Position numbers and translations under genes: made by a program. Positions 2,469 through 53,231 of a stretch of DNA of 64,000 bases are shown here, one piece after another (positions within the stretch are counted from its first letter, which is position 1; each line of letters opens with the position of its first letter). Source of the stretch: Naegleria gruberi (Eukaryota); the NCBI GenBank assembly GCA_000004985.1, contig GG738916.1. One strand, 5' to 3'. The notes below the pieces were generated by a model, which made no database searches, was not told where the DNA came from, and saw only the letters and a list, made by a program, of their open reading frames with translations.

Positions 2469-2710
2469 TCATTTCTAATTAATTTAATAGCTCCAACTGA
2501 ATACTAAAGCTCAAGCTTTGCGTGTTGGTTGCATTTATTTTCCATCACAATGCTGAAACAACTTACCAAATGTGACTTACAAGACATTGTAATGTTGTCT
2601 TTGAATTGTAGCTTGTAATGGAAAAATGGCGTTCAAAAAAAAAATAGCATGTTGAATAGCTTGCTGTCCATCATTCTGAGAAAATATCAATCCATCAATA
2701 ATAGCACAAC

Positions 2711-13155: not shown

Positions 13156-13635
13156 TCTTGAAGATAGACGGTAATTATTTTTTTTTTATATTATTTTCTT
13201 ACATTATTTTAACAAACTTCTATTGTTTAATTATTCGGATATTATTAAATCGTTACTCAAAAATTTTCACAGATGGTAAGTATTTTAAAAATCATTTACA
13301 AATTTACCTTTATTATAGTGATAATGAACAACTCAAGCCAATTCTAAATCAACTTTTTTACATTTTACAACCAAATAAATTATTTAATTTTATAAAATTT
13401 TGCAAAGTGGTGCTCTTTGGATAACTTGAGTGATTTATCCGTTTACAAAAGTAATAAGAAAATTCACATTCTGTTTGTTAATGAATTTGCCATTACAATA
13501 ATTTCTTATTGGAATGTGTTGTGACAATTGCTTAGGCTTCTACATGCACTATCGAATGTTTGCTTTCACGGTTCAGTTCGGTTTTCAACCATACCCTACA
13601 ATGTATAATTCATCGTTCGAGTAACATGAAATAAT

Positions 13636-14400
13636 TTATTCATCTTTGGTTTTTTTGTAAAGTCTATATCTTCTTTTCTTAAAACACAAACAACAAAAGC
13701 TACTAGGAATGCAACAACCAGCACATATAATAACTTTGCATCCTGTACAAAGTGATAAATATTTTGCAAATTTGGGAATTGAGACAAACTTATATTGGAG
13801 TAATATAGAAAGAGACCAAGTTGTAAAATTGAGAATACATAAAACCAATAAACCCCAACTGAGTCCTGTAATTCTTTCAAAGTCTTTAGATTTGCAATTA
13901 TTATAAGCTCCATTTACTAGAACAAATAATACAATTGAACTAATAGACCACACAATACCAAATATTAAACAAATAATTAGCAAAGCAGATCCTGCCTTTG
14001 AATTTCGATATTCCCTTTCTTGTAAATCTATTGAAAAATATGAATACCAAATAAAAGTTGCCGGAACAGCTAAGAGTATGAAAAAACACCTCATATAGTC
14101 AAAGAACATTGTTTGGAAAGCAATACTTGTATAGTCTCTAGAGTCAACTATTATGGATCCAGGAGATGTACTGTTGGTATTTGTTATATTGGCCATTGTT
14201 GTTGTGTTTGTTTCTGTAGTAGATGATAAAGAACAACCATAACCAGGTACATTATTCACAATGATATATGGGTCTGTTTGTAATCTTGAAGCATTACTCC
14301 AAAAAGCTGCATGGCCAATACATGAAATAAATATCATGAGAAAGTTAAATAGGGTTAGGTACTTTCTGATGCGTTCGTTATCTTCTAGTTTGTCTGTCAT
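13636..14400 (-). CDS. Tetraspan (4-TM) membrane protein with a poly-Cys C-terminal tail, member of a six-gene local family (family T).
   Basis: There are four hydrophobic helices with a large first extracellular loop (WSNASRLQTDPYIIVNN..., N-glycosylation sequons). The C-terminal tail is CTGCKVIICAGCCIPSSFCCLCFKKRRY. It is paralogous to 43218..44306 (WINASRLYTEPNII...). Confidence 0.55.
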   Translation of the reverse strand: MTDKLEDNERIRKYLTLFNFLMIFISCIGHAAFWSNASRLQTDPYIIVNNVPGYGCSLSSTTETNTTTMANITNTNSTSPGSIIVDSRDYTSIAFQTMFFDYMRCFFILLAVPATFIWYSYFSIDLQEREYRNSKAGSALLIICLIFGIVWSISSIVLFVLVNGAYNNCKSKDFERITGLSWGLLVLCILNFTTWSLSILLQYKFVSIPKFAKYLSLCTGCKVIICAGCCIPSSFCCLCFKKRRYRLYKKTKDE

Positions 14401-14531
14401 GGTTGTATCGGTATTTTTTTTAGGGTGTGAAAGTTAAGTTGACAATTATGCATAATTAAATTAATTAAATGGTTATTCGAATATTTTATTCGAAAGCTTG
14501 ATAATTATTAGCGAAGAATCATCACACAAGC

Positions 14532-15983
14532 TTATTGATTCAAAACATTTGTTCGTATTGTTCTGGGGTTTGAAGCATTTGGACGTTTTCTCACCACATT
14601 GTGCGTTTGTTGAAGGTAATATGGATCGTTTTGCAAATAAAGAGGGTTTCTATCAATTTTGTGAATTTGGTTAAACGTTCTCACAAATTCTGAAACGTTT
14701 CTATCTTTGGATTCATCCTCATCCCAAAAGACCTTGTCAATTATTGTTGAGATTGCATCACGAATGAGCTTACCATATCGTTTGTGGAACGTCATGCTAT
14801 AGTAACAAATATAAGACAATACCCAAATAAAAACCTGAGCCAACGCCAAAACAAAGACTGTTAACACAACATTAAGTTTGTCTTGTGCATTGGAGGAACA
14901 ATCAGTGTAGACTGCAATGTGCCAAGAAAATTGAATGACCACAGAAGCTACAGCAACAATACATGAAATTCCAAATGAAAGAATTAAGAGAGAGAAACTG
15001 AACATGTCCATAAAATAGTCATATGCTTGATCTCTAACTTGGGAATTAAAATCACCAAACCAAGTAATTGCAAGAGGAACAGCAATAGCAACAATATAAT
15101 TTCTAACAAATTCTGTCAAACCAACCAAAACACTGCTATTATACTGTTCAAATCTTTGGCAACTATCACTAGGAGGATTTGCAACATAGCCATTATTAAT
15201 GATCATCAAATTAGAATCAGTCAATAAACGATTCAACATGGTAAAGAAAATAGCATATGAGACACATGTTGTCATCAAAAACAGGACTGAAAAGCAGCTT
15301 ATCATACTTCTAACTGCTTCATTGGTGGTTTTTTGGTAGCTGTAGAATTCACTATCCAAAAATAAGTCTTTGAGTGATTCTAATGTTTCGTGGTCAATTT
15401 CTTTTGTATTGTTTCTACTCTTTGAAAGTTTAGAAGAACGTAGGATTTTGATTTGTTCATACGCATCTTTAAATTCTTTAGGTGGAAGAGTATCCTTTAC
15501 AAATCTATCAAACTTTTCAATAATTATTCCATAGTCATCGTGCACAATATTTTTGCGTGTCATGGTTGACATTAGTCGAGTGTAAGATATCAACTTTTGA
15601 GCAAGAGACATATTTGGACCAATGTTATTACTACCACCATGTGAAATCAAGGTATTTCCAATATTTAATGTTTGCATAGGTCCATTGGTACCAATAACTA
15701 TAGATGTAACAGGTTGACCACCTGTTGATGAACTTGGTATTACACCATCAGATAAACTATTAATTGTGGAAATTGAGTTGTTAGTTCTTGTCAATACTAT
15801 CTCATCTGTTATGGGTTCAATTTGAGTCAAGACATTTTGTGTTGCTTGCAAATGATTATTTGGTACAACAATAAGAGTTTGTGGTGGTAATGATGATGAG
15901 CGTTGTGGTACTTCCTCCTCGATAATAGTAAGCTCCTCCTCCTCCTCACTCACCAAATTGTTTCTGTTGTTGGATGCTGACAT
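14532..15983 (-). CDS. Family-T tetraspan membrane protein with an about 230-aa N-terminal cytoplasmic extension.
   Basis: It shares FRNYIVAIAVPLAITWF and IWVLSYICYY blocks with 40330..41220 (FRNYLTVIAIPAGISFF, ILWLICYICF). The C-terminal half has four TM segments. Confidence 0.55.
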   Translation of the reverse strand: MSASNNRNNLVSEEEEELTIIEEEVPQRSSSLPPQTLIVVPNNHLQATQNVLTQIEPITDEIVLTRTNNSISTINSLSDGVIPSSSTGGQPVTSIVIGTNGPMQTLNIGNTLISHGGSNNIGPNMSLAQKLISYTRLMSTMTRKNIVHDDYGIIIEKFDRFVKDTLPPKEFKDAYEQIKILRSSKLSKSRNNTKEIDHETLESLKDLFLDSEFYSYQKTTNEAVRSMISCFSVLFLMTTCVSYAIFFTMLNRLLTDSNLMIINNGYVANPPSDSCQRFEQYNSSVLVGLTEFVRNYIVAIAVPLAITWFGDFNSQVRDQAYDYFMDMFSFSLLILSFGISCIVAVASVVIQFSWHIAVYTDCSSNAQDKLNVVLTVFVLALAQVFIWVLSYICYYSMTFHKRYGKLIRDAISTIIDKVFWDEDESKDRNVSEFVRTFNQIHKIDRNPLYLQNDPYYLQQTHNVVRKRPNASNPRTIRTNVLNQ

Positions 15984-16089
15984 TATTTTTTAAAAATGTG
16001 GAAAATTTTAAAAAAACTTTTAAAAAAATCACCTTATAACCATGAATACCAAAAGTGATTTTAAATCCAAAACAGAAAAAATAGCCTAA

Positions 16090-17646
16090 ATGCGCCTGTT
16101 ACCTTTTCTAAAGTTGAATAACAAACCAAGAAGAGAATCAGCACGGCAATTATTGCTCTCTGATGATATTATTTACATTATTCTTCCATGCTTGCATCAA
16201 AATGAAATTATTAAATTTGCTGGTGTTTGTTCATCGTGGAGAAGAATTGTTATTGATGCTTCCGAAGGTAGTTTCTCTAATGTATTATATCATAGGAGTG
16301 AATTTAAGAAAATACCAATGAAAATGGAGAACAAGAGTGAAAACCAACAAGTTTTATTAATGTTTTCAAAATTTGATTTCTCTGATTGCAATTTAACTTT
16401 ATCACAATTCAAAAGAATATTCATGTCAACTAAATTGACATCATTGACACTATGCCGTACAAATATTATGATTTTCCCTTCTGAATCACTCACATTTCTA
16501 ACCATTAATCAAATTAATCTTTCTCTAAACAATATTGAACAATTAATATTTCAATTTAAAAATTTGAAAAATTTAATTTTATTACATACTAATGTTGATT
16601 GTGAGTGCATTGATCTTATTATTAATAATAATCAATTAGAGAGTCTTATTATTGAGCAGAAAATAATATCTGAGAGAGGATTCTCTGCCGTGTTCAATCC
16701 TCATTTCAATTCATCACTCAATACCCTTCATGTTAAGAGTTTGAACACAGAGGAATTTCTTAGTTTTAATATTGATACACTTAAATTTCCTCATTTGAGA
16801 ACATTGGAAATTATTGGATTATTTGATAGATTAGTGCTTGAGAAAATATTTAATTATGGTCTTGAATTAACGTATTTAGCAATATTGACAACGAGCATTA
16901 TGAGCTACGATGTTGATTTTTCATATGTACATCAAATACCCTCTCTCAAATCATTTTCCTATAATGGACCTCTTAATAATGTAGATGTTCAACAATTTCT
17001 TAATAAGGATATGGAACATATTCTGTTTTCAGATCTTGACACAGTATCATCATTGAATTTATCTAGAATACTTTGTGACAAATATACTAGTTTAATTTCA
17101 TTAGAGCTTTCAAATTGTGAATTACCTACAAATTGTGGACAATACATTTACAATTTAAAACACTTGACAAAACTAGATATGGGATATAGTAAAATACAAT
17201 CAACAATTTGTGGATATATTTTCAAGATGAAAACTCTGGTTCATCTCAATCTAAAATGTTGTAAATTAAGAGATGACGGATTGAAGTATTTAGAACATCA
17301 CAACTTGGATAATATACAGACATTAATTCTAGAAGAAAACGAATTTACATATATTGGCTTTGAATACTTAATTCGTGCCAAATTTCACCGTCCATTGAAA
17401 TATCTTTCCATTTTTGACCATATTAATAATAAGGGAACAATACATTTTGACACTGACCACACTCTTAATGTTAAAACACTCTTTATTTGTGATAGGTATA
17501 TAGATTATAGGGGAGTAATTTCTATTCTACAAAATTGTATAATAGAAGAATTAATTATCAAGAAACCACAATTACTCTATCTTGGATCACACTCCATTAA
17601 ACAACTTTCAAAGAAGAATCACGTGAAGGTAGTAATGTTTATATAA
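16090..17646 (+). CDS. F-box-like/LRR protein, a divergent paralogue of the triplicated gene.
   Basis: An N-terminal F-box-like motif (LLLSDDIIYIILPCLHQNEIIKFAGVCSSWRRIV) is followed by LRR-like repeats. Confidence 0.55.
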   Translation: MRLLPFLKLNNKPRRESARQLLLSDDIIYIILPCLHQNEIIKFAGVCSSWRRIVIDASEGSFSNVLYHRSEFKKIPMKMENKSENQQVLLMFSKFDFSDCNLTLSQFKRIFMSTKLTSLTLCRTNIMIFPSESLTFLTINQINLSLNNIEQLIFQFKNLKNLILLHTNVDCECIDLIINNNQLESLIIEQKIISERGFSAVFNPHFNSSLNTLHVKSLNTEEFLSFNIDTLKFPHLRTLEIIGLFDRLVLEKIFNYGLELTYLAILTTSIMSYDVDFSYVHQIPSLKSFSYNGPLNNVDVQQFLNKDMEHILFSDLDTVSSLNLSRILCDKYTSLISLELSNCELPTNCGQYIYNLKHLTKLDMGYSKIQSTICGYIFKMKTLVHLNLKCCKLRDDGLKYLEHHNLDNIQTLILEENEFTYIGFEYLIRAKFHRPLKYLSIFDHINNKGTIHFDTDHTLNVKTLFICDRYIDYRGVISILQNCIIEELIIKKPQLLYLGSHSIKQLSKKNHVKVVMFI

Positions 17647-17701
17647 AGATTCATTTCATTCATTTATTTGATTATCCAGAGTTGTGGTTTTTATCTTGAT
17701 T

Positions 17702-19195
17702 TCAATAAGTTCTGTTTAAATCATTTTCTAGTTCCAACCAATGCCAACTTTTCCATTTCTCAATTGCTTGTTTTTGAGGTTCATTTTTAAGCTTGGTGAT
17801 GGCAACATCCAGCTCATGCTGTCTATTTCCAATTTCTCTGTGTTGAAGTTCAATTTCTTCAGTGGAGTTAGATGCTTGAATAACAGGCTCTGTAAATAAC
17901 ACACTATAGTTCACATTTTGAATGCTGTGTGTTTTGGTATTGTGATAGCTGTAGTATTTTCTTTTCTTTTGGTTTTTTGCCTTCCTAAATTGTCTATTCA
18001 TTAAAATTCTAAAACAACCGAATGCAGGTATAAACAGCATAAACAAAATACTACCAACAACTTGAGTCCAAAATGCACCAAGCATGAGCTTTAGGTATTC
18101 ATTTGGAGCTATTAAATTAATGGCTGTATTAAAACTGATACCAATGGCAATGTTTAAGATAATGGTAATAAAAGTAATGAATTTAAATGTAACCTCGAGA
18201 ACATTTGTAACGGTATCACTATTAATCAATATACTCTTATTGTTGATTGAATTTAACATGGCATCCATAATTGTCAAAAAGGCTGCATATGAACCTGTTT
18301 TGAAAAAGCTTGAATTTAAAATATCGACTATAGAAGCCAATATTTTGCTATCTCTGAAGTTTTGATTATGATCAGTATACTGAGTAGTATCATTTCTGCT
18401 GAAGTAGCTTGGATAGATACCTATAGGGCCTTGTTTGTCAATTCCTAACCCTGACAAAGTGTCGAAGGGAATGAGATCACTAAGAGTGGTCATTACAATT
18501 AACAAACTGATAGCAGCACCGAACGCAAGATTGTACCATGAAACAAGTGAGGTTTCTCTTTTTTGAACAAAGTCCTTCTTGTTTGTTTTGATATCTTTCT
18601 CAAGAGTTTCGTATTTCTTTTCAACTTCTCTTATAGCTGTAAGAAATTTTCTTTTCCCCTCCCAACCATTTTTAGCATCTTGGTTAGCAAACAGATTTAC
18701 TAAAGCTTCAACATCTTCTACCAAAACATTTCCATCAACAAGGATAACACTATTATAAATATTTTTGTAAAGGCTATTCAACTTTGTAATATCTACACCG
18801 TGCCAAAACGATGTCCAAGTAGTTGCACCATTCTCCCCAAAATAAAAATCGTAAAAAGCTATTTCAGTGTTGACTGGTGAATCTGGTATTTTGCTAATTA
18901 CACCCTTCAAACCATAGTAGCTAGTGGCAATCAACTCAATTCTCTCTCCAACATAGTCTGTAGTGTCAATTCCTTCTAAATCACCCAAAGTGTTGTACTT
19001 TCGTATTTTCTCAACATTTGCTTGTACAAAATTATGACAGTTGTGGAAGGATGTAGAGGCAAATTTGATAAGTTTTCCCACCTTTTTCCATTTTTTGTAA
19101 CGCCAAGCATAGTCGCTGGTGTCTCCTGTGCGTGCCACAATACCACAACAACCTTTGTTGGTTTTCTTGCCTTTTGCTTTGTTCTGAGATGACAT
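17702..19195 (-). CDS. Family-T tetraspan membrane protein with an about 220-aa N-terminal domain. It is transcribed divergently from its paralogue at 19362..20504.
   Basis: ...KRETSLVSWYNLAFGAAISLLIV (TM1) is followed by a loop and three further TMs. The architecture is conserved with 19362..20504 (...PREASLIALFNISFGIWMGLFLL). Confidence 0.5.
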   Translation of the reverse strand: MSSQNKAKGKKTNKGCCGIVARTGDTSDYAWRYKKWKKVGKLIKFASTSFHNCHNFVQANVEKIRKYNTLGDLEGIDTTDYVGERIELIATSYYGLKGVISKIPDSPVNTEIAFYDFYFGENGATTWTSFWHGVDITKLNSLYKNIYNSVILVDGNVLVEDVEALVNLFANQDAKNGWEGKRKFLTAIREVEKKYETLEKDIKTNKKDFVQKRETSLVSWYNLAFGAAISLLIVMTTLSDLIPFDTLSGLGIDKQGPIGIYPSYFSRNDTTQYTDHNQNFRDSKILASIVDILNSSFFKTGSYAAFLTIMDAMLNSINNKSILINSDTVTNVLEVTFKFITFITIILNIAIGISFNTAINLIAPNEYLKLMLGAFWTQVVGSILFMLFIPAFGCFRILMNRQFRKAKNQKKRKYYSYHNTKTHSIQNVNYSVLFTEPVIQASNSTEEIELQHREIGNRQHELDVAITKLKNEPQKQAIEKWKSWHWLELENDLNRTY

Positions 19196-19361
19196 TCTCA
19201 GTCCTGTAACCTTGTGTTATTTTTTCTCGGCTATTAAAAGTATATTAACTTTTAAACAGAAAATAATACGGTGCGATTGAGCTCTTGAATGGTTTTGTCT
19301 GGTTGACCGTGAAACCTAATTCAATTTTTGGATAAAAAAAATATTAAAGAGCACTTTCAGC

Positions 19362-20504
19362 ATGGTTAACATTCGTGATTTTGATAAACAGCCTGAAGCA
19401 CGAAGTAAAGCAGCACGAAATGAAGCAACCCTAAAAGAAGAAGAGGACAACACCACACTTTATCAATGGTTCCTAGATCTTGGTAGAGCAATCCAAAATG
19501 CAGGTACAGAAGATAGTCCCTTGTCTAAATTGATGTTAGTTTCCAAAGAACAATGGTTTTTGGATGCCAAAGAATTTGTTTTTAAGCCACCTAAAACACA
19601 ATACAAACATAGATATGTTCTTGTACTTATTTCCAATTTGAAGACTTTGATTGTTGGTACTGAAATTTTACTCAAGAAAAAAGACGACAATGTTGATAAA
19701 ATAGAGCAGCTAACCAGTATAAGAGCTTTGGAAGAAAAGTATTTGGGGTTTAAGAAATCGATCAAGACTCAACAAAACTCATTGCAAAAGCCAAGAGAAG
19801 CTTCATTGATAGCATTGTTCAACATATCATTTGGAATTTGGATGGGTTTGTTCCTTTTGTTGTTGTCCCTTGGTTCAAATGCTGGTTTTGCTTACAAAGT
19901 TGAGACAACTGCAAATGATTTGGCAAAAGCCATAAATTCTACATTCATATCAAAACCTATTAGCAACATGACACTTAATTCTTCAAGCAATATCACACCA
20001 AACAATATAACAAACCACAATGAAGAGATCATTGCAGACATTCGTTGGTACATGGCATCAAGAGGATTCACCAATTTATTCAGCCTTTTCAGTAGCAGTG
20101 TTGTTCGTATTACAACTTTTTCAATCCTGATTACCATTATTGACTTGCTTCTTGGACTTGAATTTAAGGATTACCTTACCTCTGCCTCCTTTAAAAAGAG
20201 AAGACAATATTTTTTCTATACTTTTTACTTTTGGATTAGTTCTGGATTTTTAGCTCACCTTTTTATTTTTGTACTCTTTGTAGCATTGTTTAATGGTGCA
20301 GTAATTGGTGATGGAACAATGTCCTTTCAAACTTTTGTGTCAGTGGTCAAGTCTGTGCAGATTGTTGGCCTAATTGGAATGTCTGTTGTATTGCTCTCTA
20401 CTGTATTCATCAAAATTTTCCTGGTTTGGCAAGTAAGGAAGAGTGAAGAAAGATTTGTTGGTTCTAAAAAATCTAAAGGTTGCTGCCGTTGCTTTTGTTG
20501 TTAA
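19362..20504 (+). CDS. Family-T tetraspan membrane protein that ends in a KSKGCCRCFCC poly-Cys tail.
   Basis: It is paralogous to 17702..19195. Four TM segments sit in the C-terminal half and the extreme C-terminus is Cys-rich. Confidence 0.5.
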   Translation: MVNIRDFDKQPEARSKAARNEATLKEEEDNTTLYQWFLDLGRAIQNAGTEDSPLSKLMLVSKEQWFLDAKEFVFKPPKTQYKHRYVLVLISNLKTLIVGTEILLKKKDDNVDKIEQLTSIRALEEKYLGFKKSIKTQQNSLQKPREASLIALFNISFGIWMGLFLLLLSLGSNAGFAYKVETTANDLAKAINSTFISKPISNMTLNSSSNITPNNITNHNEEIIADIRWYMASRGFTNLFSLFSSSVVRITTFSILITIIDLLLGLEFKDYLTSASFKKRRQYFFYTFYFWISSGFLAHLFIFVLFVALFNGAVIGDGTMSFQTFVSVVKSVQIVGLIGMSVVLLSTVFIKIFLVWQVRKSEERFVGSKKSKGCCRCFCC

Positions 20505-20526
20505 TAATATAAATTAGTTTGCTTTA

Positions 20527-22365
20527 TTAAATAAATTCATCAATTCGTATATCTGTATATGCAATCAAATAGTTGATTTTTGTTGGTTGTCTTAATTGTG
20601 ATATGACTTTTGCTTTAAGGGCTGCAAAACCTCCAATTCCAGTCAGATATTTAGGTGCCAGATTATTGACTATAGGTACTAAAATAGGTGTAATTGTTAA
20701 ATCTACCCAATAAAGTTCTAAATGTATCAAATTTTTCAGAGATGGTCCAGAATGTAACATATCAGTTGCATAAATATCAAATTCATAATAAAAACTCAAG
20801 TATCTTAATTTGGGAAAATTTGAATGAGCTAAACTTGATGTAAACTTTGAGTCATATTTGAACTTGCCTGAAGGAACTCTTGTAAACTTTAAAGTTTGTA
20901 AATTTAGTAAATTTCCGTTGCATAAATATGAAATTCCATCAAATGTAATTTCACTTCCTAAATATAATGTTGTCAAGTTACTCATTCTTGATAAATATTT
21001 CATTTCTTCACTATCAATATGTGTTTGAATAATTCGTAAATCAGTAATTTTTGAAAGTTGGGATATGTGATGCATACATCCACTTTTCATTACTACTTTT
21101 CTTAACTCTAAATAGGTTAGATTTTGGACTTTTTCACAGAATTTTCGTATTACATATTCATCTATTTCAGTTCCTTGTTTTGTATTTAGAATGCATAAAT
21201 ATTTCAAATTAAGAAAGTTACCCTCACTCAATTCAGAGAATGTATTATTGTCAACAGGACCAATTTCTAGGTGAGTGAGATTATTTTGAAGAGGTAATAA
21301 ACATCTGTAAGGTAAATCTACTTCCAATTTTGATTGAAAACAAAGTTTTTGGAGTGTATGAATTTTTCCAATTTGTTTCACACATTCACTATTTAAATGT
21401 GAGTGAAGAAAAGTCAATTCTCTCCATGAATTACCACTATTCAACACATTCATAATTGATTTTGTCGACATCTCCAAATCTATTGAAAAAGATTCAAGAT
21501 TTGGTAAAATTGAACTATTAATTGGTGCTATGTATGAAATATTGTCTTTTTGAGATGATTCTGGAGGTCTTGCAACAAAGTTAATATGTTTCAAAGTTCT
21601 AATATTTCCTGGTTGAGTCAATATTTGATTAACACCTTCATCTCCAATTCGATTACGAAGTGTAAGATGTGTTAGACGAGTCAACTTTGATTTGGTCAAT
21701 ACAAGTGTTGCCTTATAATCAAGTCCATTATCAATTAATGTTAGATCTGTTAAATTTAGTAAATTAGTGCATATAGTTCTTAAATTTTCAACTTCCATTT
21801 GAACACTTATTAATTTCAGTGTTGTAATTGGTGAAATATCTTTAGCAGGAATAACAATTGTAATAATATTAGTATTTTGTAATGTCAATAATTCCAGTTT
21901 TTTTGAATTGAATAACTTTTTAAAAAAAGATCTGTTAAGAAAAATAGTTTCCTCAAATTCTGGAAAAGTTCTTATTTCCATTTGTGAGAATATTTGCAAG
22001 AGGTCACCTTTCATCAATCCACTCATTTCCTCCTCATCATTTAATGATTCAAATCTGTATCTTGCTGATTTATGCTTCACATTTACACACTTGATTTCTC
22101 TAGTATCACTTTCTTTTACAATTCTTCTCCACTCGGAACAAACTCCAGCAAAAGCAATCAAAGTATGCCAATTAAAATAGGGAATAATAACATTGCAAAA
22201 TATATCTTGACTCAATTGTAATATTTTGGAATAAATCATCATGTTAATACTATTATCTGTTGTTGTTGTGCTATTACTATCGGTTGTTGTGTTATTATTG
22301 ATGGATTGATAGTGGGTACTTTCTCTAGAAAAACAACAGAATGATGGACAACAAGTTGTCAACAT
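20527..22365 (-). CDS. F-box-like/LRR protein, copy A of the triplicated gene. The ORF as listed includes an N-terminal extension; the probable physiological start is MMIYSKILQ at about 22245.
   Basis: It is near-identical to 2711..4459 and 51448..53166. The upstream element that is conserved in all copies (catgttgacaacttgttgtccatcattctg) is in frame here. Confidence 0.65.
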   Translation of the reverse strand: MLTTCCPSFCCFSRESTHYQSINNNTTTDSNSTTTTDNSINMMIYSKILQLSQDIFCNVIIPYFNWHTLIAFAGVCSEWRRIVKESDTREIKCVNVKHKSARYRFESLNDEEEMSGLMKGDLLQIFSQMEIRTFPEFEETIFLNRSFFKKLFNSKKLELLTLQNTNIITIVIPAKDISPITTLKLISVQMEVENLRTICTNLLNLTDLTLIDNGLDYKATLVLTKSKLTRLTHLTLRNRIGDEGVNQILTQPGNIRTLKHINFVARPPESSQKDNISYIAPINSSILPNLESFSIDLEMSTKSIMNVLNSGNSWRELTFLHSHLNSECVKQIGKIHTLQKLCFQSKLEVDLPYRCLLPLQNNLTHLEIGPVDNNTFSELSEGNFLNLKYLCILNTKQGTEIDEYVIRKFCEKVQNLTYLELRKVVMKSGCMHHISQLSKITDLRIIQTHIDSEEMKYLSRMSNLTTLYLGSEITFDGISYLCNGNLLNLQTLKFTRVPSGKFKYDSKFTSSLAHSNFPKLRYLSFYYEFDIYATDMLHSGPSLKNLIHLELYWVDLTITPILVPIVNNLAPKYLTGIGGFAALKAKVISQLRQPTKINYLIAYTDIRIDEFI

Positions 22366-22507
22366 GCTCTCTTATTTTTTTTTGAACCTTAACTCCATTT
22401 TCCCCATTTTTCTTTTGATTCGGCAAAATACACAAAAACGTACAAAAATGTAAAAAATATTACAACGATGACTTTTGAAAGAGTTTACCAAAACCGACTG
22501 TTAAAAA
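22366..22507. promoter_or_regulatory. Shared divergent (bidirectional) intergenic promoter region between F-box/LRR copy A and NHL-EGF copy 1. It is duplicated almost exactly at 51228..51447.
   Basis: A 142-bp AT-rich spacer lies between two divergently oriented ATGs. The same sequence separates the copy C pair. Confidence 0.4.
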
Positions 22508-24157: not shown

Positions 24158-24179
24158 TTAGGAGAGAGCTCGAGATGAA

Positions 24180-29171: not shown

Positions 29172-31185
29172 TTATTTAGGTACCAACTTTTTCTTTTCAA
29201 TAGAATCGCCAGAACAACAACATCTTGCAACACAACAGCAACAAATTGTCAATGAAATGGTAATCAATACAAATAAAACTGATACACCAACAACAACAGC
29301 AATAACTCTGTTTGTGTTAAGTGAAGAAGTATCAAGGAAATCTATAAAGATGAAAGAATCCAAAAAGTCAACAATAACTTGCTTCACTTTGTAGTAAACA
29401 TATAAAAGTTCACCCCAGAAACTACTTGCTGGTGCTTTGTTATCAACTAATGTACCATTGGATGCAATGTAAAAATCATACTCAACTACGAGTGAGGAAG
29501 TATAGGTACCACAAGTGAGAGTCATCATTGCATAGCCTGTGAAATTTTTGGTTGGATAAATTGTAATTGAGTTTGTATCAGAATTTGACAAGGATACATA
29601 AGTTGGTGTAAATGAAGGTGTAGATGATTCAAAGAAACAACCTTGTTGAGTTTTAGATTTAACTACACAAGATGTTGATAAACAACTGACAAGAGTTGGT
29701 TGTGAATTGTCAGTTGTCAATATTGTCATGTTACCAACAATTTTCAATGAAACTGATGCTAATGAAACACCTTTAAATGAAATTGAAGAAAGAACTGTTG
29801 GATCAGTTGGTTCAACAGTAACTGGAATAAAAGATGCTCCATTACGTGTTTCACCTTTGAAAGAAACACGTTTAAGCATATTATCAGGCCAAGTATATGC
29901 TAATATTTGTGTATCTGCATCTCCTTTGATTAATTGTGGGTTAGAATCACCACCATCAGTATATCTCTCTATATAGATACAATTTGGTTCCTTGAAAAAA
30001 AGTTTGGTAGAAATGACTGGATTGGAGTTGATTGAATTTTCTTTGAAATTATAAATTTTAAAATTTCCAGTTATAGAACCACAAGTAGTTGATAAAGTAA
30101 GACTATTTGAAGTTTCAGTGGATTTCCAGCAAGAATTCCTTCAATATTGCTACCAATAATAATAGGTTCAGTTGAATCTATACCTAAATAACCAAATCCT
30201 AGAATATTTTCAGGCCTACTAATGGCATGTGAAATACATCCTTTGAAGCAATGATGGATGCTTGTAAATTCAAATCTGAATATTCGGCAAATTTGGCCAA
30301 GAAAGAAGCTCTACTTGCAGCATGGGCCTCTAAAATACGTCTAGTAATAGAGGCATTATCAAAAGAAGCTACAGTATAAGCAGGGGAACTTTCACAACCA
30401 GTTGAAAAGTGTACCATTGATTGAATTTCTGAGAGTTCAGGAAGTGTAACATCAAAATTACAACTACCTCTTGGTGATTGACAATTATATTTGATTTCAC
30501 TGTTTTTAATATTGCTGACCTTAATCCAACCAATCTTTGAAATATCAGAAACGTTAAAACCATTTACTACTGAAGAAGGTAGTAAGTAAAAATCTGATTT
30601 AGATGTTAAATCAATAACTGAATAATCTGCAACAAATGGAAGGGTAGTTGAATTTAAATCCATAATGAAATTTAAACCAGTGTAACCAATTGGAATTGAT
30701 GCTTGATTATTTACAACTGAAACTTGAGAAGAACTTCCTTGATATTTAACAGTAATAAAACCGCTATAGGTAGGAGGATCCAATTTACAAACTTTGAAAC
30801 GTCTAAAAGCTTCAAATGCCAAATTATAACAAGAAGTACTATAACCTGGGTCAGTGTTTGGAATACTAAAAGAAACGGTGTTCAAATAGTTATTACCTGT
30901 AAAATCAGGTGGAGAACAAACATTGCTTTTTGAGCAAGCAGAAGTATATCTTGGAATTGGATCATCTGTATAATAACAACTAGAAGATGATAATTTAACA
31001 ATAAAATCCATTCCAAGTGTAATATCAACAATGGAATTGTCATCTGTAATCTTGAAACAAACTTTGTCATTCAATGTTCGGGTATAACCAGTATCAACAG
31101 AATAAATACAACTGGTTGAATTATTGGCACCAAGGCATGACTTTTGTTGACCTTTAGAAAGTGCTATTGGAAGACACTGTTCATA
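29172..31185 (-). CDS. Large type I membrane protein, paralogue of 32620..34749. Its 5' end lies in the gap at 31186..31680 and there is an apparent 1-nt frame break near 30150. The C-terminal TM is followed by a CCCCVARCCCSGDS poly-Cys tail.
   Basis: The pieces 30199..31074 and 29172..29879 align colinearly with the N- and C-terminal halves of the 709-aa paralogue (CYNLAFEAFRRFKVCKL..., ...FIPVTVEP...TCGTYTSSL...). The intervening 29880..30198 also aligns, but in a shifted frame. Confidence 0.5.
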
Positions 31186-31680
31186 NNNNNNNNNNNNNNN
31201 NNNNNNNNNNNNNNNNNNNNNNNNNNNNNNNNNNNNNNNNNNNNNNNNNNNNNNNNNNNNNNNNNNNNNNNNNNNNNNNNNNNNNNNNNNNNNNNNNNNN
31301 NNNNNNNNNNNNNNNNNNNNNNNNNNNNNNNNNNNNNNNNNNNNNNNNNNNNNNNNNNNNNNNNNNNNNNNNNNNNNNNNNNNNNNNNNNNNNNNNNNNN
31401 NNNNNNNNNNNNNNNNNNNNNNNNNNNNNNNNNNNNNNNNNNNNNNNNNNNNNNNNNNNNNNNNNNNNNNNNNNNNNNNNNNNNNNNNNNNNNNNNNNNN
31501 NNNNNNNNNNNNNNNNNNNNNNNNNNNNNNNNNNNNNNNNNNNNNNNNNNNNNNNNNNNNNNNNNNNNNNNNNNNNNNNNNNNNNNNNNNNNNNNNNNNN
31601 NNNNNNNNNNNNNNNNNNNNNNNNNNNNNNNNNNNNNNNNNNNNNNNNNNNNNNNNNNNNNNNNNNNNNNNNNNNNNNNN
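31186..31680. other. Assembly gap (495 N) covering the 5' end of the type I membrane protein paralogue.
   Basis: A run of n characters. Confidence 0.99.
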
Positions 31681-31900
31681 TATTTATTTAGTAAAAATTG
31701 TGTAATCGGCAATTTAAATGTGCGAATGACTTTTGTGGCTCAATGGCTTGGTTGACTACCTACCTACGCTTTGGTGTGGCCACAACATGAACCACCTGGA
31801 TTGTTGACTGGGATCCACACTCTTTTCACAACAATTTACTCCCACAACGTGTATCAGAGAAACTAAACTAAAGGTACGAAACTAAACGAAACCAACCTAA
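31681..31900. repeat. GC-richer non-coding island directly after an assembly gap (ggcttggttgactacctacctacgctttggtgtggccacaacatgaaccacctgg...). Possibly a fragment of the same repeat family as 23842..24157.
   Basis: It shows a local composition shift and shares the gactacc / ggttg word family with the other island. Confidence 0.25.
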
Positions 31901-32009
31901 TCATCAAAGTTAACAAGAACATACAATTAGAATAACAAAATCACAATTGTACCATTCCTTTTCAACCAATTATTGATTGTGTTTTTCACAAATTCTTAAA
32001 TTGATAAAA

Positions 32010-32468
32010 ATGAGCAAAATCCAAGAGACATTTTGTCCTGCCATTGAACAGTTGGATCTTACATTGAAAAAGTACAATTTTATTTCTCTATCTAAAGTGA
32101 TTTATTTATACACATGGGTATCTTCAATTACATCAACAACAATTGCTGCCACTTGTCTAATTTTTATGTTTTGTATAATGATTAGTTCCATTCCCGATAT
32201 TTTCAAAACTAATGGAAAGCTTGGTAATTTTTTAGAGAAACGAAAGACAACCTCTACCATGTGGAGGATATTGACACAATACTCAATTCTATTACTTTAT
32301 AGCTTTTGGACAGTTTTTACAAGAACATTTTCATGTGTATTTTATATCGTTTCATCCATTCCTTTATTAATTCCATTATTAATGTACATGATAACTCTGT
32401 CAACTTATCGATTTTTATTACAGGAACTCACAGTAGTGGTTTTACAAATATGTAAAGGAGATTTCTAA
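32010..32468 (+). CDS. Small hypothetical multi-pass membrane protein (three or four predicted TM segments). The start is probably MSKIQETF.
   Basis: It is an uninterrupted ORF with hydrophobic segments (VSSITSTTIAATCLIFMFCIMISSI; LLLYSFWTVFTRTFSCVFYIVSSIPLLIPLLMYMITL). It has no similarity to other genes in the window. Confidence 0.3.
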   Translation: MSKIQETFCPAIEQLDLTLKKYNFISLSKVIYLYTWVSSITSTTIAATCLIFMFCIMISSIPDIFKTNGKLGNFLEKRKTTSTMWRILTQYSILLLYSFWTVFTRTFSCVFYIVSSIPLLIPLLMYMITLSTYRFLLQELTVVVLQICKGDF

Positions 32469-32619
32469 TAAATTATTGGATATCTATTCATTGAAATATT
32501 GTCATGATTCAATAATTTGGGTAGCAATCATTAAACACCACAAGAGATTCTAACAGAATTTTAACTAATCTGTACGAAATCTTGAATGATCAAATCAAAT
32601 GAAACTAATCTTTAAATGT

Positions 32620-34749
32620 TTATTGATTCATACAACAAAACAAGATGGTTACAATTATAGTTGTGAAAATAGCAAGTAAAGTAAAGATTCCAATAGTTAT
32701 CAAGGCCCTCTTCAAACCAGATGTACCATAAAAAGAGGAGATATCATAGTCGAATGAGTCAAAAAACTCAACGAACACTTTCTTCATCTCAGCATATAAA
32801 TAATTCAATTCAGTTGTCCAACTATTAGAAGGAGGATCAATGTCAACGACAGTACCATTAGGTAAGAGTTTGAAATTATAGTCCATCAATAAACTTGATG
32901 AGTATTTACCACAGGTAACTATCATTTCAATGGTACCTGTAAAGTCCTTGGTTGGATAGATCATTAGCTGATTTTTTCTTGAAACTTGAAGTGGTGCGTA
33001 TGTAGGTCTAAAAACTGCTGGTTTTGACTCAAACCAACAACCTTGTTCATCTTTTGAAGAAATTACACATGTTGTGGAGCTACAATTCATCAATGTTACT
33101 TGTGATCTTACTTTTGGTATTGGTATGGTCAATTCTCCACCAACTTGAATAGAAATTGAAGTTAATGAAGAAAGTGAAATTGTAACTGTTGCAAGAGCAG
33201 TTGTATCAAGAGGTTCTACAGTTACTGGAATGAATCCACGTTCAGTATTGTTACCATAAAAAGTAATACGCTTGAGCATATTATCAGGCCAAGTATATGC
33301 AGTCAACTCTGTGTTTTGTGGTGTATCATAACCACCAAGTCCTTGCCATGCAAAAGGTCCATCACGATTAATTGCATCATACCTTTGAATATATGTACAT
33401 GAAGAATTGAAAGAGTACATATATGTAGAAACAGCAGTTGGATTATTTGGAATTGCCTTCTCAAGTGCATGATAAACTTTAGCATCTCCAGAAATAACGC
33501 CACAATTTGTCATTCTATCTGAAACAGTTTCTGTTGATGAGTATGTAACACTTGGTATACCATTAATATCATTACCAATAATAATAGGTTCACCATTAGA
33601 ATCCACACCCAAATAACCATATCCCAAAATATGCTCAGGTCTAGCAATCGCATGAGAGATGAAATCCTTACTAGCTGAAATGGATAAAGCTAAATTCTTG
33701 TCTGAATAAACGGATGATTTAGTTAGCATGGATGCTCTATTGGCTGAATTGAGCTCTAAAATACGTCTTGTGATGGATGCATTATCAAATGAAAGAGTAG
33801 TGGTGCTAGGATTTTTACAATCTGTTGAAAAGTGCATTAGAGATTGTAATACTGAAGTTTGAGGAAGCGTTACATTAAAATTACATGTACCTCTTGGTGA
33901 TTGACAATTAATCATTGATTCTGCGTTATTAACATTATTAACTTTTACCCAACCAATTCTTGAAACATCATTGGTGCTTTCTGAATTTACCATTGAATAA
34001 GGTAAAAAGTAAAAATCTGTTTGCGCAGTCAAGTCAACCACAACAAAATCAGTACTAAATGGGAGAGTAGATGATGTTAAATTAACTACAACACTGACAC
34101 CAGAGGTTCCAAGTTTAACAACACCAACATTATTAGCAATAGGTATGGTGTATGTTAATTCTTGATAGGTAGCAATCACTGAACCAGAATAGGTTGGTTT
34201 GTTTAATTTACAAACCTTAAAACGTCTAAAAGCTTCAAAGGCAACATTGTAACAAGCTCTACTGTAACCTTGCTGTTTGTAAGTTGGAGTTTTATATGAA
34301 AAACTAGAAGGATAAGTATTACCAGTAAAACTTGGTGGTGTACAAACATCAGTACTGCTACAAAATGCTGTATATCTTGGAAGAGGATCGTCAGTATAAT
34401 AACAATAGGAAGATGACAATACAGCAGAAAAATCATCACCTAAAGTAATATTTACCATAGAACTGTCATCGGTCAATTTAAAACAATAATTATCACCAGT
34501 ATAGGAGGTTGTGAGAGCTGTGTTAATATTATACACACAAGCTGTATCAGAACAGGATATCTGTTTTGTTGGAGAAATTGAAACAGGAAGACAATCCTGT
34601 TGGTGAGTGGAAGAAATAGAAACCAAAAGACATGACAATATCAACAACAATACCACGGTGGTAGGAGTGAGCTGCATTTTTTCAAAGTCAATTTTACGAT
34701 TTTGACCATTTTTACCACGATTATCATGACTACCAAAACTGTTAAACAA
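32620..34749 (-). CDS. Large type I membrane protein (709 aa). It has a signal anchor, a Cys-containing extracellular domain with many N-glycosylation sequons, and a C-terminal TM with a short LFCCMNQ tail. It sits in tandem with its paralogue at 29172..31185.
   Basis: It is a single intact ORF. The N-terminal hydrophobic segment is TVVLLLILSCLLVSIS and the C-terminal TM is ALITIGIFTLLAIFTTIIVTILF. No known domain is recognised. Confidence 0.55.
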   Translation of the reverse strand: MFNSFGSHDNRGKNGQNRKIDFEKMQLTPTTVVLLLILSCLLVSISSTHQQDCLPVSISPTKQISCSDTACVYNINTALTTSYTGDNYCFKLTDDSSMVNITLGDDFSAVLSSSYCYYTDDPLPRYTAFCSSTDVCTPPSFTGNTYPSSFSYKTPTYKQQGYSRACYNVAFEAFRRFKVCKLNKPTYSGSVIATYQELTYTIPIANNVGVVKLGTSGVSVVVNLTSSTLPFSTDFVVVDLTAQTDFYFLPYSMVNSESTNDVSRIGWVKVNNVNNAESMINCQSPRGTCNFNVTLPQTSVLQSLMHFSTDCKNPSTTTLSFDNASITRRILELNSANRASMLTKSSVYSDKNLALSISASKDFISHAIARPEHILGYGYLGVDSNGEPIIIGNDINGIPSVTYSSTETVSDRMTNCGVISGDAKVYHALEKAIPNNPTAVSTYMYSFNSSCTYIQRYDAINRDGPFAWQGLGGYDTPQNTELTAYTWPDNMLKRITFYGNNTERGFIPVTVEPLDTTALATVTISLSSLTSISIQVGGELTIPIPKVRSQVTLMNCSSTTCVISSKDEQGCWFESKPAVFRPTYAPLQVSRKNQLMIYPTKDFTGTIEMIVTCGKYSSSLLMDYNFKLLPNGTVVDIDPPSNSWTTELNYLYAEMKKVFVEFFDSFDYDISSFYGTSGLKRALITIGIFTLLAIFTTIIVTILFCCMNQ

Positions 34750-40329: not shown

Positions 40330-41220
40330 TTAATTATCTGATGCAAAACCAAGGACAGACTCTCTAAATTGTTGAACAGGATTAGCACCACAAAATAGAA
40401 TCTTAATAAACTGTGCTTTCCAACCGTCTTCAACATCCTCAAAAAATCGGAAACAAATATAACAAATCAACCACAAAATTACTTGCAAAACACAAATTCC
40501 CAATGCACCACTAGCTACTGAAAGTTTAGGCAATGGATCTCTTGCACCCTTTCCAAACATGTATGTAAAAGGATCACCAATTAAAAAGAGAGCACTAACC
40601 AATGCCAAAACAAATGAACAAAAAACTGAAACAACACAAAAACCAACCAATACTCTACTGAAGCGTAATTTAACCTCTTTGTTTCTGACACCAACTACAA
40701 AATTAGAAAAAAAGGAAATGCCTGCAGGAATTGCAATTACAGTCAAGTAATTTCTAAAAAATTCATTGGTATTACTAAAGAAAGAAACAAAGAAAATTAT
40801 TAAGTTTTCTCTCTCAGTTGGAGGATGATCATTATCATATGATACTTGTATAGTATTATAATTTGGATCTGTCAATAACTTTGAAACCAGTGTCCAGAAA
40901 ACAGCATACGAAATTGAACTCAAAATAATCATTAAAAAAGAGATGAAACTAATGAATTTACCAACAATAATGGTAATGAATTCATCTTTTAACCAATTGT
41001 ACATTTCATCTTCCTTTCCTTCCTTATCTTGAACTGCTTGAGCATATGGTAGAGGTAGAGTAAGCTTTTCAAACCTGGCTTCATGGTCTCCTAAACTTTC
41101 CATTTCCAATAACATATTAACAATATTGCCTTCTGACTTTTTTGTTGATGTTCGTGTATGTGGTGTTTTTGGTGTTGGAGTTATAATGGTGGTTGCTTCT
41201 CTAAAGTTGGGGTTTTGCAT
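40330..41220 (-). CDS. Family-T tetraspan membrane protein.
   Basis: It has four TM segments. It shares FRNY..IAIP and ILWLICYICFRFF blocks with 14532..15983. Confidence 0.5.
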   Translation of the reverse strand: MQNPNFREATTIITPTPKTPHTRTSTKKSEGNIVNMLLEMESLGDHEARFEKLTLPLPYAQAVQDKEGKEDEMYNWLKDEFITIIVGKFISFISFLMIILSSISYAVFWTLVSKLLTDPNYNTIQVSYDNDHPPTERENLIIFFVSFFSNTNEFFRNYLTVIAIPAGISFFSNFVVGVRNKEVKLRFSRVLVGFCVVSVFCSFVLALVSALFLIGDPFTYMFGKGARDPLPKLSVASGALGICVLQVILWLICYICFRFFEDVEDGWKAQFIKILFCGANPVQQFRESVLGFASDN

Positions 41221-43077: not shown

Positions 43078-43217
43078 TTTTTTTAAAAGTCATGAGGAGG
43101 AATATGCCTTCCTTTTAAAATATTGAAACATTGAATCGTTCGTGTATTTAAATTTTCCAAACATAGCAACCAACTCAATTGAGACATTAAATTATTGTTG
43201 GTTGTGTTTAAAAAAAA

Positions 43218-53166: not shown

Positions 53167-53231
53167 CAATTCTACAACTCTTGCTTCTAACACTCTAGAG
53201 AATATCATAAAATCAAGATATAACCCTAGTA

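What the first reader, a model, noticed from the sequence alone, without database searches (positions are those of the whole stretch)
13636..20504. Cluster of six paralogous tetraspan membrane proteins with poly-Cys tails, interleaved with F-box/LRR genes
Six genes encode proteins sharing a four-TM core with a large first extracellular loop and conserved blocks (WxNASRLxTxPxII; FRNYxxxIAxPxxIxWF; IxWxLxYICY). They are 13636-14400, 14532-15983, 17702-19195, 19362-20504, 40330-41220 and 43218-44306. They carry variable N-terminal cytoplasmic extensions and Cys-cluster tails (CAGCCIPSSFCCLCF, KGCCRCFCC) typical of multiply palmitoylated proteins. They occur as divergent or tandem pairs and repeatedly sit next to F-box/LRR genes (16090-17646 and 41317-43077). 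There is no detectable similarity to tetraspanins, claudins or PMP22 at the motif level. The family appears lineage-specific and locally expanded, and it is physically embedded in the NHL-EGF / F-box duplication. This suggests a functionally linked membrane-signalling or recognition neighbourhood.
Basis: seen in the sequence. Interest (0 to 1): 0.6.

Follow-up and report, generated by a model that had tools for sequence, protein, structure and literature searches.

The report
Orphan four-pass membrane genes in Naegleria
The six genes are real but form two unrelated, uncharacterised four-pass membrane-protein families (four genes plus two) known only from the amoeba Naegleria gruberi and a few environmental contigs, and their position beside F-box/LRR genes recurs on those contigs; function is untested.

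Summary
All six ORFs exist at the stated coordinates. They are not six paralogues.

**Family A** is M1, M2, M5 and M6. It is one family with two old subtypes, M1/M6 and M2/M5 (hhalign 99.3%).

**Family B** is M3 and M4. They are related to each other and share the architecture, but show no detectable homology to family A (hhalign 0.2-2%).

The source is Naegleria gruberi (Heterolobosea), not an amoebozoan.

New points:
- An M2-type gene followed by an M1-type gene recurs on another contig.
- An M2-type gene head-to-head with an FL_16090-type F-box gene recurs at two loci (three contigs).
- One Cys in each outer loop is kept, or lost in both loops (M5).
- M4 and M5 appear unannotated.

The 94-97% identical F-box/NHL-EGF duplication stops short of the membrane genes. 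Poly-Cys tails occur in only some members.

My best reading, which is inferred, is S-acylated, glycosylated heteromeric membrane scaffolds co-regulated with SCF adaptors. Interest is moderate to low.

The parts
13636..14400 (-). M1: family A, M1/M6 subtype, 254 aa (NAEGRDRAFT_74679, D2W001). Four TM helices. Motifs FWSNASRLQTDP and YMRCFFILLAVPATFIWY. Tail with 8 Cys.
14532..15983 (-). M2: family A, M2/M5 subtype, 483 aa (NAEGRDRAFT_74680, D2W002). About 220 aa of low-complexity cytoplasmic N-terminus, then the 4-TM core. It lies directly upstream of M1 on the same strand.
15984..16089 (.). 106-bp AT-rich spacer between the divergently transcribed M2 and F-box/LRR gene FL_16090. Presumed bidirectional promoter.
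   Evidence: the same head-to-head layout is seen in L004, L005 and L006
16090..17646 (+). FL_16090: F-box/LRR protein, 518 aa, head-to-head with M2.
   Evidence: (F-box-like 15.9 bits, below the cut-off). Relatives in L004 and L005 pass the PF00646 cut-off.
17702..19195 (-). M3: family B, 497 aa (NAEGRDRAFT_53624, D2W003). About 215 aa cytoplasmic N-terminal region with a KGCCG motif, then a predicted 4-TM region.
19196..19361 (.). 166-bp spacer between the divergent M3 and M4.
19362..20504 (+). M4: family B, 380 aa. Four hydrophobic segments, 5 sequons in the first outer loop, C-terminus KGCCRCFCC. Not present in the protein collections, so apparently unannotated.
20527..22365 (-). FL_20527: F-box/LRR protein, convergent with M4. 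It is part of the recent 94-97% identical duplication. N-terminus MLTTCCPSFCCFS.
40330..41220 (-). M5: family A, M2/M5 subtype, 296 aa. Lacks the Cys in both outer loops. Not present in the protein collections, so apparently unannotated.
41317..43077 (-). FL_41317: F-box/LRR protein, 586 aa. It lies upstream of M5 on the same strand and head-to-head with M6.
   Evidence: (F-box-like 32.4 bits, above the 24.3 cut-off)
43078..43217 (.). 140-bp spacer between the divergent FL_41317 and M6.
43218..44306 (+). M6: family A, M1/M6 subtype, 362 aa (NAEGRDRAFT_74690, D2W010). Coiled-coil-like N-terminus, YWINASRLYTEP motif, TCCH at the end of TM4.
29172..34749 (-). Two tandem 'T1' genes for Cys-rich type-I membrane glycoproteins: 32620-34749, and 29172-31683 broken by an assembly gap. 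This family is the downstream neighbour of M1-type genes on contigs L001 and L002.

Best explanation
The locus holds two separate orphan families of four-pass membrane proteins from Naegleria gruberi.

**Family A (M1, M2, M5, M6).** It has two ancient subtypes, M1/M6-type and M2/M5-type. These occur in equal numbers and as neighbours. The predicted topology has both termini in the cytoplasm. The first outer loop is long and rich in glycosylation sequons. The outer ends of TM1 and TM2 carry conserved charged motifs: [FY]W..[AS].[RK]L.T[DE]P and [DE][FY].[RK].[YF]....P....[WF][FY]. One cysteine in each outer loop probably forms a loop-to-loop disulfide. In many members, cytoplasmic cysteine clusters lie next to TM4, in positions expected to be S-acylated.

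**Proposed role (inferred).** One subunit of each subtype assembles into a heteromeric, lipid-anchored surface-membrane scaffold or receptor. This works like tetraspanin- or claudin-type organisers but is not related to them. The gene for one subunit shares a short bidirectional promoter with an F-box/LRR gene. The SCF ubiquitin-ligase adaptor it encodes would control turnover of the complex or of its partners.

**Family B (M3, M4).** It has an analogous architecture and probably arose independently, or has diverged beyond recognition.

**What is shown:** family limits, subtypes, conserved residues, hydropathy and sequon layout, conserved gene order, and purifying selection on M2.

**What is inferred:** topology, disulfide, S-acylation, heteromer formation and coupling to SCF.
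For: - **Family A is one family with two subtypes.** hhalign of M1-type against M2-type gives 99.3%, E 2.8e-20 over 177 columns. An NJ tree splits the subtypes in 100% of bootstraps.
- **Mirrored branching.** The tree gives (M5,(M2,P0006)) at 98% and (M6,(M1,(P0008,(P0007,P0015)))) at 70%.
- **Equal numbers of the two subtypes.** Two plus two in the window. Three plus three clusters come from the two samples that share an identical contig.
- **The tandem order M2-type then M1-type recurs.** Window M2 then M1 with a 131-bp gap; L001 P0006 then P0015 with a 46-bp gap.
- **M2-type head-to-head with an F-box gene recurs.** Seen in L004/L005 and L006, where the F-box gene's best window match is FL_16090 (E 1e-13 to 1e-15 and 6e-6, against 1e-3 to 1e-5 for the other F-box/LRR genes). 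The F-box domain is confirmed for L004 and L005; the L006 ORF scores below both F-box cut-offs.
- **Outer-loop cysteines.** Seven of eight complete members have exactly one Cys in the second outer loop and one clear Cys in the first (M1 has a further Cys at the TM2 boundary). M5 has none in either loop.
- **Topology.** Sequons are concentrated in the first outer loop and Lys/Arg in the N-flank, the inner loop and the tail.
- **Cys-rich tails.** 8-9 Cys in M1, P0007 and P0015; 3 in P0006 and P0008.
- **Structure model.** AF2 gives four long helices, pLDDT 70.8, pTM 0.61.
- **Purifying selection on M2.** Between two N. gruberi-like strains that are 98.2% identical, M2 has 12 nucleotide differences but only 3 amino-acid changes.
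Against: - No experiment and no expression data; no paper mentions the locus tags.
- The genome is compact, with 22-166 bp spacers everywhere in this stretch, so sharing a short spacer is the default rather than a sign of co-regulation.
- F-box/LRR genes are common here: 5 in 64 kb.
- The evolutionary distance to the metagenome organism could not be calibrated, so conserved gene order may be plain inheritance.
- In L001 and L002 the neighbours are T1 glycoprotein genes, not F-box genes.
- The two window trios are arranged differently, and FL_16090 and FL_41317 are not each other's closest relatives.
- Cys tails are absent from M2, which has no tail Cys, and nearly absent from M5, which has one.
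- The M1-type branch order has only 70% bootstrap support.
Confidence: 0.4

Rival explanations
1. Neutral history only. Old tandem duplicates of fast-evolving orphan membrane genes have simply stayed linked. Their position next to F-box/LRR genes, in the window and on the metagenome contigs, reflects a compact genome, an abundant F-box/LRR family and inherited gene order. There is no functional coupling and no obligate pairing of subtypes.
For: - Spacers are short throughout the region.
- There are five F-box/LRR genes in 64 kb, three of them recent copies.
- Neighbours differ between loci: T1 genes in L001 and L002, F-box genes in L004-L006.
- The two window trios have different arrangements.
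- Divergence from the metagenome organism is not calibrated.
Against: - The head-to-head F-box partner on L004/L005 and L006 is specifically the FL_16090 type.
- The M2-type then M1-type order is retained although the proteins have drifted to about 31-33% identity.
- The subtype trees mirror each other.
Confidence: 0.35
2. One family after all. M3 and M4 are extremely diverged members of the same 4-TM family as M1, M2, M5 and M6.
For: - Same architecture: variable cytoplasmic N-terminus, four hydrophobic segments, a sequon-rich first outer loop, and terminal Cys clusters.
- Physical interleaving in the window.
- A family B fragment lies next to an M1-type remnant on L003.
- The only hhalign match, though insignificant, aligns TM1 and the start of the first outer loop in register.
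Against: - hhalign probability is 0.2% and 2%.
- No BLASTP link.
- None of the family A motifs is present, and there are no outer-loop cysteines.
- The family A HMM does not hit M3 or M4 in the six-frame window scan.
- The AF2 model of family B was unusable at pLDDT 38.6, so fold comparison was impossible.
Confidence: 0.1
3. Pore or channel subunits. Family A proteins oligomerise into a channel, in the manner of Orai, CALHM, pannexin or LRRC8 four-pass subunits with cysteine-stabilised outer loops.
For: Four long helices extending beyond the membrane. One conserved Cys per outer loop. Conserved charged residues at the outer ends of TM1 and TM2.
Against: - No Pfam, PDB sequence or fold match to any channel family.
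- No conserved polar pore-lining pattern was identified.
Confidence: 0.07
4. A self/non-self or mating-type recognition locus. Polymorphic surface proteins (the 4-TM families, T1 glycoproteins, teneurin-like NHL-EGF proteins) are kept together with F-box adaptors. Dictyostelium tgrB1/tgrC1 is a comparable case, recalled from general knowledge.
For: - The region from 13 to 53 kb is dominated by predicted surface proteins.
- P0004 is a 78%-identical copy of M3 on a 1.8-kb scaffold, and could be a very divergent haplotype.
- Evolution between taxa is fast, at about 30% identity.
Against: - Between two N. gruberi-like strains M1 and M2 are nearly identical, with 1 and 3 amino-acid changes. That is not hyper-polymorphic.
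- No mating or kin-recognition system is described for Naegleria in what I could search.
Confidence: 0.06

Closest known systems
Tetraspanins (Pfam PF00335)
   Same: Four TM helices with both termini in the cytoplasm, juxtamembrane cysteines that are S-acylated, a glycosylated outer loop, and a role as membrane organisers. This is the working model borrowed here.
   Different: Tetraspanins have a small first and a large second outer loop with a CCG motif. Family A has the reverse: a first loop of 44-75 aa, a second of 15-17 aa, and one Cys in each. There is no Pfam, PDB or fold match.
Claudin / PMP22 / EMP / MP20 superfamily (PF00822, PF13903), including the fungal Sur7/Fig1-like proteins
   Same: Four TM helices, a large first outer loop, a short second loop, cytoplasmic termini, and S-acylation in some members.
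   Different: Claudins carry a W-GLW-C-C signature with two cysteines inside the first loop, and a beta-sheet outer domain. Most family A members have a single Cys in the first loop. The model shows a disordered first loop flanked by helical extensions and no beta-sheet. No sequence or fold match was found.
Large-pore and related four-pass channel subunits (connexin, pannexin/innexin, LRRC8, CALHM, Orai)
   Same: Four TM helices, cytoplasmic termini, and cysteines in both outer loops that could cross-link them. An association with LRR proteins is reminiscent of LRRC8.
   Different: No sequence or fold match. Family A has one Cys per loop rather than two or three. The LRR protein here is a separate F-box gene product, not a fused domain.
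FBXL-type F-box/LRR substrate adaptors of SCF ubiquitin ligases (the neighbouring genes)
   Same: An N-terminal F-box followed by LRRs. FL_41317 passes the Pfam cut-offs, and the FL_16090-type relatives on L004 and L005 pass PF00646.
   Different: FL_16090 itself scores below the cut-off (15.9 bits). No substrate is known. The three recent copies begin with a Cys cluster, MLTTCCPSFCCFS, which suggests membrane anchoring.

Membership tests
Tetraspanin (PF00335) | Significant match to the family profile | tested here: not met
   No PF00335 hit at E<=1 for any of the six proteins or for the 11 family A members.
Tetraspanin (PF00335) | Small first outer loop and a large second outer loop with a CCG motif | tested here: not met
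   The first loop is 44-75 aa and the second 15-17 aa with a single Cys.
Claudin/PMP22 (PF00822, PF13903) | Significant match to the family profile or fold | tested here: not met
Claudin/PMP22 (PF00822, PF13903) | W-GLW-C-C signature with two Cys in the first outer loop, and a beta-sheet outer domain | tested here: not met
   One clear Cys in the first loop (M1 has a second at the TM2 boundary), and no beta-strands in the model.
Connexin / pannexin / LRRC8 / CALHM / Orai channels | Profile or fold match, and multiple paired Cys in both outer loops | tested here: not met
Family A as defined here (M1/M2/M5/M6 and metagenome relatives) | Motif [FYW][FW]..[ALVS][SN][RK]L.T[DE][PS] at the outer end of TM1, and [FYM][FVM]R.[YF]....[AIL].P....[WF][FY] entering TM2 | tested here: met
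   Both motifs are present in M1, M2, M5 and M6 and absent from M3 and M4. They are conserved in P0006-P0008, P0015 and P0012.
Family A as defined here | M3 and M4 score against the family profile | tested here: not met
   hhalign 0.2% and 2%. The HMM scan of the six-frame window hits only the four.
S-acylated (palmitoylated) membrane proteins | Cytoplasmic cysteines next to a TM helix | tested here: met
   M1 tail has 8 Cys. M4 ends KGCCRCFCC. M3 has an N-terminal KGCCG. M6 has TCCH at the end of TM4. P0007 and P0015 have 9 Cys. M2 has no tail Cys and M5 has one.
S-acylated (palmitoylated) membrane proteins | Thioester-linked fatty acid actually attached | not testable with these tools
   Needs acyl-biotin exchange or metabolic labelling.
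F-box/LRR (FBXL) adaptors, for the neighbouring genes | F-box domain above the Pfam cut-off, plus LRRs | tested here: inconclusive
   FL_41317: met (32.4 bits against a 24.3 cut-off). FL_16090: below cut-off (15.9 bits). FL_20527: LRR_14 only, at 33 bits against a cut-off of 40. L004 and L005 relatives pass PF00646 with 20.9-21.9 bits against 20.5.

The most novel reading that the evidence does not exclude
A conserved three-gene surface module specific to Naegleria-like heteroloboseans. It would consist of one M2-type subunit, one M1-type subunit and a dedicated F-box/LRR SCF adaptor transcribed from a shared promoter. The two subunits would form an obligate, disulfide-braced, S-acylated heteromeric receptor or scaffold. 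The partner ubiquitin-ligase adaptor would set its abundance, and it might act together with the neighbouring T1 and teneurin-like NHL-EGF glycoproteins in cell-surface recognition. This would be a previously undescribed kind of four-pass membrane complex with no relative in other eukaryotes.
Probability: 0.15. Interest if true: 0.55.

Novelty: new variant of a known kind. Interest (0 to 1): 0.35.

Why it matters
If the pairing and the SCF coupling are real, Naegleria would carry its own invention of a four-pass membrane organiser, unrelated to tetraspanins and claudins. That would give a handle on surface biology in a deep-branching eukaryote that is a model for the pathogen N. fowleri.

On a practical level, the work defines an undescribed family with motifs and a profile, and splits it correctly from a second family. 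It also points to two apparently unannotated genes, M4 and M5, and corrects the taxonomic attribution.

The family is tiny: 10 clusters at 50% identity among 1.84 billion proteins. No function is known, so the wider impact is limited for now.

Tried and rejected
- **Word-index homology searches.** Searches with A3, A2 and A4 returned almost only self hits. The exhaustive HMM scan was needed to find relatives.
- **Viral origin.** No relatives in IMG/VR and no BFVD fold match. Rejected.
- **Family B structure.** AF2 from three sequences gave pLDDT 38.6, which is unusable, so it was not searched.
- **T1 neighbour structure.** The T1 profile has no PDB sequence hit and no Pfam hit.
- **Exact look-ups.** Look-ups of M2, P0001 and P0004 contigs failed.
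- **Weak HMM hit.** The hit at 56987-57604 (E 0.11) is not a family member: its hydropathy and sequence differ.
- **Literature.** No paper mentions the locus tags. Searches on Naegleria with F-box or tetraspanin gave nothing relevant.
- **'Part of the recent duplication'.** Rejected from the repeat boundaries.


Full report
**1. What is in the sequence**

The six ORFs are present, uninterrupted, at the stated coordinates and strands:
- M1 13636-14400 (-)
- M2 14532-15983 (-)
- M3 17702-19195 (-)
- M4 19362-20504 (+)
- M5 40330-41220 (-)
- M6 43218-44306 (+)

The window has about 32% G+C.

Four of the proteins are database entries labelled 'predicted protein [Naegleria gruberi]'. They are M1 = NAEGRDRAFT_74679, M2 = _74680, M3 = _53624 and M6 = _74690, all on a 245-kb scaffold. 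The organism is therefore a heterolobosean, not an amoebozoan.

M4 and M5 were not found in any form in the 15-billion-protein collection. They appear to be unannotated genes.

**2. Six paralogues, or four plus two**

All-against-all BLASTP links M1, M2, M5 and M6. E-values run from 1e-7 to 1e-16, except M2-M6 at 0.007. The closest pairs are M1-M6 and M2-M5. M3 links to M4 (E 1e-7; 27% identity overall). Nothing links the two groups.

Profile-profile comparison of the groups gives 0.2% probability. With an 11-sequence profile it gives 2%. An HMM of the four-gene group, run over the six-frame translation of the whole window, hits only those four. The M3/M4 profile hits only those two.

The first two blocks are in all four; the third is only in M1 and M2.

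I call the two groups family A and family B. Family B does share the architecture: four hydrophobic segments, a sequon-rich first outer loop and terminal Cys clusters. Homology between the families cannot be shown.

**3. Family A in detail**

It has two subtypes that are clearly homologous. hhalign of M1-type against M2-type gives 99.3%, E 2.8e-20, over 177 columns.

An AlphaFold2 model of the M1 core, built from an 11-sequence alignment, has pLDDT 70.8 and pTM 0.61. It shows four long helices and a disordered first outer loop.

Features by region:
- N-glycosylation sequons are concentrated in the first outer loop (0-5 per protein).
- Lys/Arg are concentrated in the N-flank, the inner loop and the tail. 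This fits both termini being cytoplasmic.
- Seven of eight complete members have exactly one Cys in the second outer loop and one clear Cys in the first. M1 has a further Cys at the TM2 boundary. M5 has none in either loop. This pattern is what a loop-to-loop disulfide predicts, but the disulfide is inferred.
- Cys-rich tails are strong in M1 (8 Cys), P0007 and P0015 (9 each). They are modest in P0006 and P0008 (3 each). M6 has only a juxtamembrane TCCH. M2 has no tail Cys and M5 has one.

The poly-Cys tail is therefore frequent but not defining.

**4. How widespread**

An exhaustive HMM scan of 1.84 billion representative proteins found only 10 clusters at E<=1e-3. Three are N. gruberi proteins (M1, M2, M6). 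Seven contain only unnamed ENA or JGI metagenome proteins. No hit has an NCBI or UniProt source other than N. gruberi.

Further searches found no relative:
- Pfam on all six proteins and on all 11 aligned members
- PDB sequence profiles
- BFVD
- IMG/VR scans

**5. Neighbourhood in the window**

The gene order, is:
calpain; F-box/LRR; Paf1; CCT; M1; M2; F-box/LRR (FL_16090); M3; M4; F-box/LRR (FL_20527); NHL; NHL-EGF; two 'T1' Cys-rich type-I glycoprotein genes; EGF genes; M5; F-box/LRR (FL_41317); M6; a 2207-aa NHL-EGF gene; F-box/LRR (FL_51448).

Self-BLASTN shows a recent duplication:
- 20524-23791 matches 53169-49944, inverted, at 96.5% identity.
- 2631-4473 matches 22387-20513 at 94%.
- Further blocks lie inside the NHL-EGF genes.

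This duplication carries only F-box/LRR and NHL/EGF genes. Its edges fall at 20513-20524 (the M4 stop codon is at 20504) and at about 44431 (the M6 stop is at 44306).

The membrane genes abut the duplication and are not embedded in it. The F-box genes that touch family A genes (FL_16090, FL_41317) are old and divergent, at 25-33% identity to the others.

Spacers are short throughout, 22-166 bp. That is normal for this compact genome.

**6. Related loci elsewhere**

- **L008** (ENA ERZ929261) is a 98.2% identical copy of window 12142-17673 from an N. gruberi-like strain. M2 differs at 12 nucleotides but only 3 residues. M1 differs at 2 nucleotides and 1 residue. FL_16090 differs at 12 nucleotides and 7 residues. 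M2 is under purifying selection, and M1 and M2 are not hyper-polymorphic.
- **L001** (ENA ERZ27315067, 40% G+C) carries an M2-type gene (P0006) followed 46 bp later by an M1-type gene with a 9-Cys tail (P0015). A T1-family gene comes next. The window has the same M2 then M1 order.
- **L002 and L007** carry M1-type genes. In L002 two T1-family genes follow.
- **L004/L005** are the same locus seen in two samples. **L006** is a separate locus. All carry M2-type genes head-to-head, 52-92 bp apart, with F-box ORFs. The best window match of those ORFs is FL_16090 (E 1e-13 to 1e-15 for L004/L005, and 6e-6 for L006). The other F-box/LRR genes score 1e-3 to 1e-5. F-box domains pass the Pfam cut-off in L004 and L005. 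The window has the same layout for M2 and FL_16090, with a 106-bp spacer.
- **L003** comes from the same sample as L008 and has 32% G+C. It carries a family B fragment, an M1-type remnant and an F-box/LRR gene. It may be a second locus in the same species. 'All members lie in this window' is therefore true only for annotated proteins.

An NJ tree splits the subtypes in 100% of bootstraps and gives mirrored orders: (M5,(M2,P0006)) at 98% and (M6,(M1,(P0008,(P0007,P0015)))) at 70%. This fits an ancestral M2-type/M1-type pair that duplicated before N. gruberi and the metagenome organism separated.

**7. Interpretation**

Shown:
- There are two orphan families.
- Family A has two paired subtypes with conserved outer-face motifs.
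- Gene order with the partner subtype and with an FL_16090-type F-box gene is conserved.

Inferred:
- Family A proteins are glycosylated, disulfide-braced, S-acylated heteromers of one subunit of each subtype. They act as membrane scaffolds or receptors.
- The divergently transcribed F-box/LRR SCF adaptor is co-regulated with them, and may control their turnover or that of their partners.

I put this at about 0.4.

The main rival, at about 0.35, is neutral history: old tandem duplicates in a compact genome rich in F-box/LRR genes, with gene order simply inherited. I could not calibrate the distance to the metagenome organism, which is the key weakness.

Channel-subunit and recognition-locus readings are not excluded but have little support.

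**8. Verdict**

The families are undescribed, but the architecture is a familiar one. The family is tiny and lineage-restricted, and no function is known.

Interest is moderate to low (0.35). The most novel reading not excluded is a dedicated 4-TM pair plus SCF adaptor module, at about 0.15 probability.

Noticed in passing
window 22327-22365 (-) and 51228-51447 (+): The recent F-box/LRR copies begin MLTTCCPSFCCFS. This N-terminal Cys cluster resembles the M1 tail CCIPSSFCC. The same codons lie upstream of the TTG start listed for the 51448 copy. These SCF adaptors may themselves be membrane-anchored by S-acylation.
   Followed up: partly
window 29172-34749 (-); L001 3739-5814 (-); L002 1787-3865 (+) and 3969-4589 (+): An orphan family of roughly 700-aa Cys-rich type-I membrane glycoproteins ('T1'). 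It has no Pfam or PDB sequence match and has Cys-rich cytoplasmic tails (LFCCMNQ; CCCCVARCCCSG). It is the downstream neighbour of M1-type genes on two metagenome contigs and lies between the two family A clusters in the window.
   Followed up: partly
window about 31190-31690: An assembly gap (a run of N) interrupts the second T1 gene, so 30199-31683 and 29172-29879 are probably parts of one gene.
   Followed up: no
window 19362-20504 (+) and 40330-41220 (-): M4 and M5 are intact, conserved ORFs, yet they are absent in any form from the 15-billion-protein collection. They appear to be missing from the N. gruberi gene set.
   Followed up: partly
window 2631-4516, 20513-23791, 49944-53221, 24163-28106, 45636-47359: There are three 94-97% identical copies of an F-box/LRR gene. 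Two of them are paired divergently with an NHL or NHL-EGF (teneurin-like) gene, which points to a very recent segmental duplication. The EGF arrays also show extensive internal repeats at 65-80% identity.
   Followed up: partly
P0004 (NAEGRDRAFT_54957, a 1789-bp N. gruberi scaffold): A 362-aa fragment 78% identical to M3. It is either a paralogue elsewhere in the genome or a strongly diverged second haplotype of the M3 locus. The contig could not be retrieved.
   Followed up: partly
L003 (ENA ERZ929261, 5034 bp, 32% G+C): This contig comes from the same sample as the 98%-identical N. gruberi-like contig L008. It holds a family B fragment (3-428 -), an M1-type remnant split at about 1327-1433 and lacking TM3 and TM4 (1252-1676 +), and an F-box/LRR gene (3353-5032 +). 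It may be a second, partly decayed locus in the same species.
   Followed up: partly
window 17702-19195 (-) against 19362-20504 (+): In family B the Cys cluster sits at the N-terminus in M3 (KGCCGIV, residues 14-20) and at the C-terminus in M4 (KGCCRCFCC). Both ends are predicted to be cytoplasmic.
   Followed up: no
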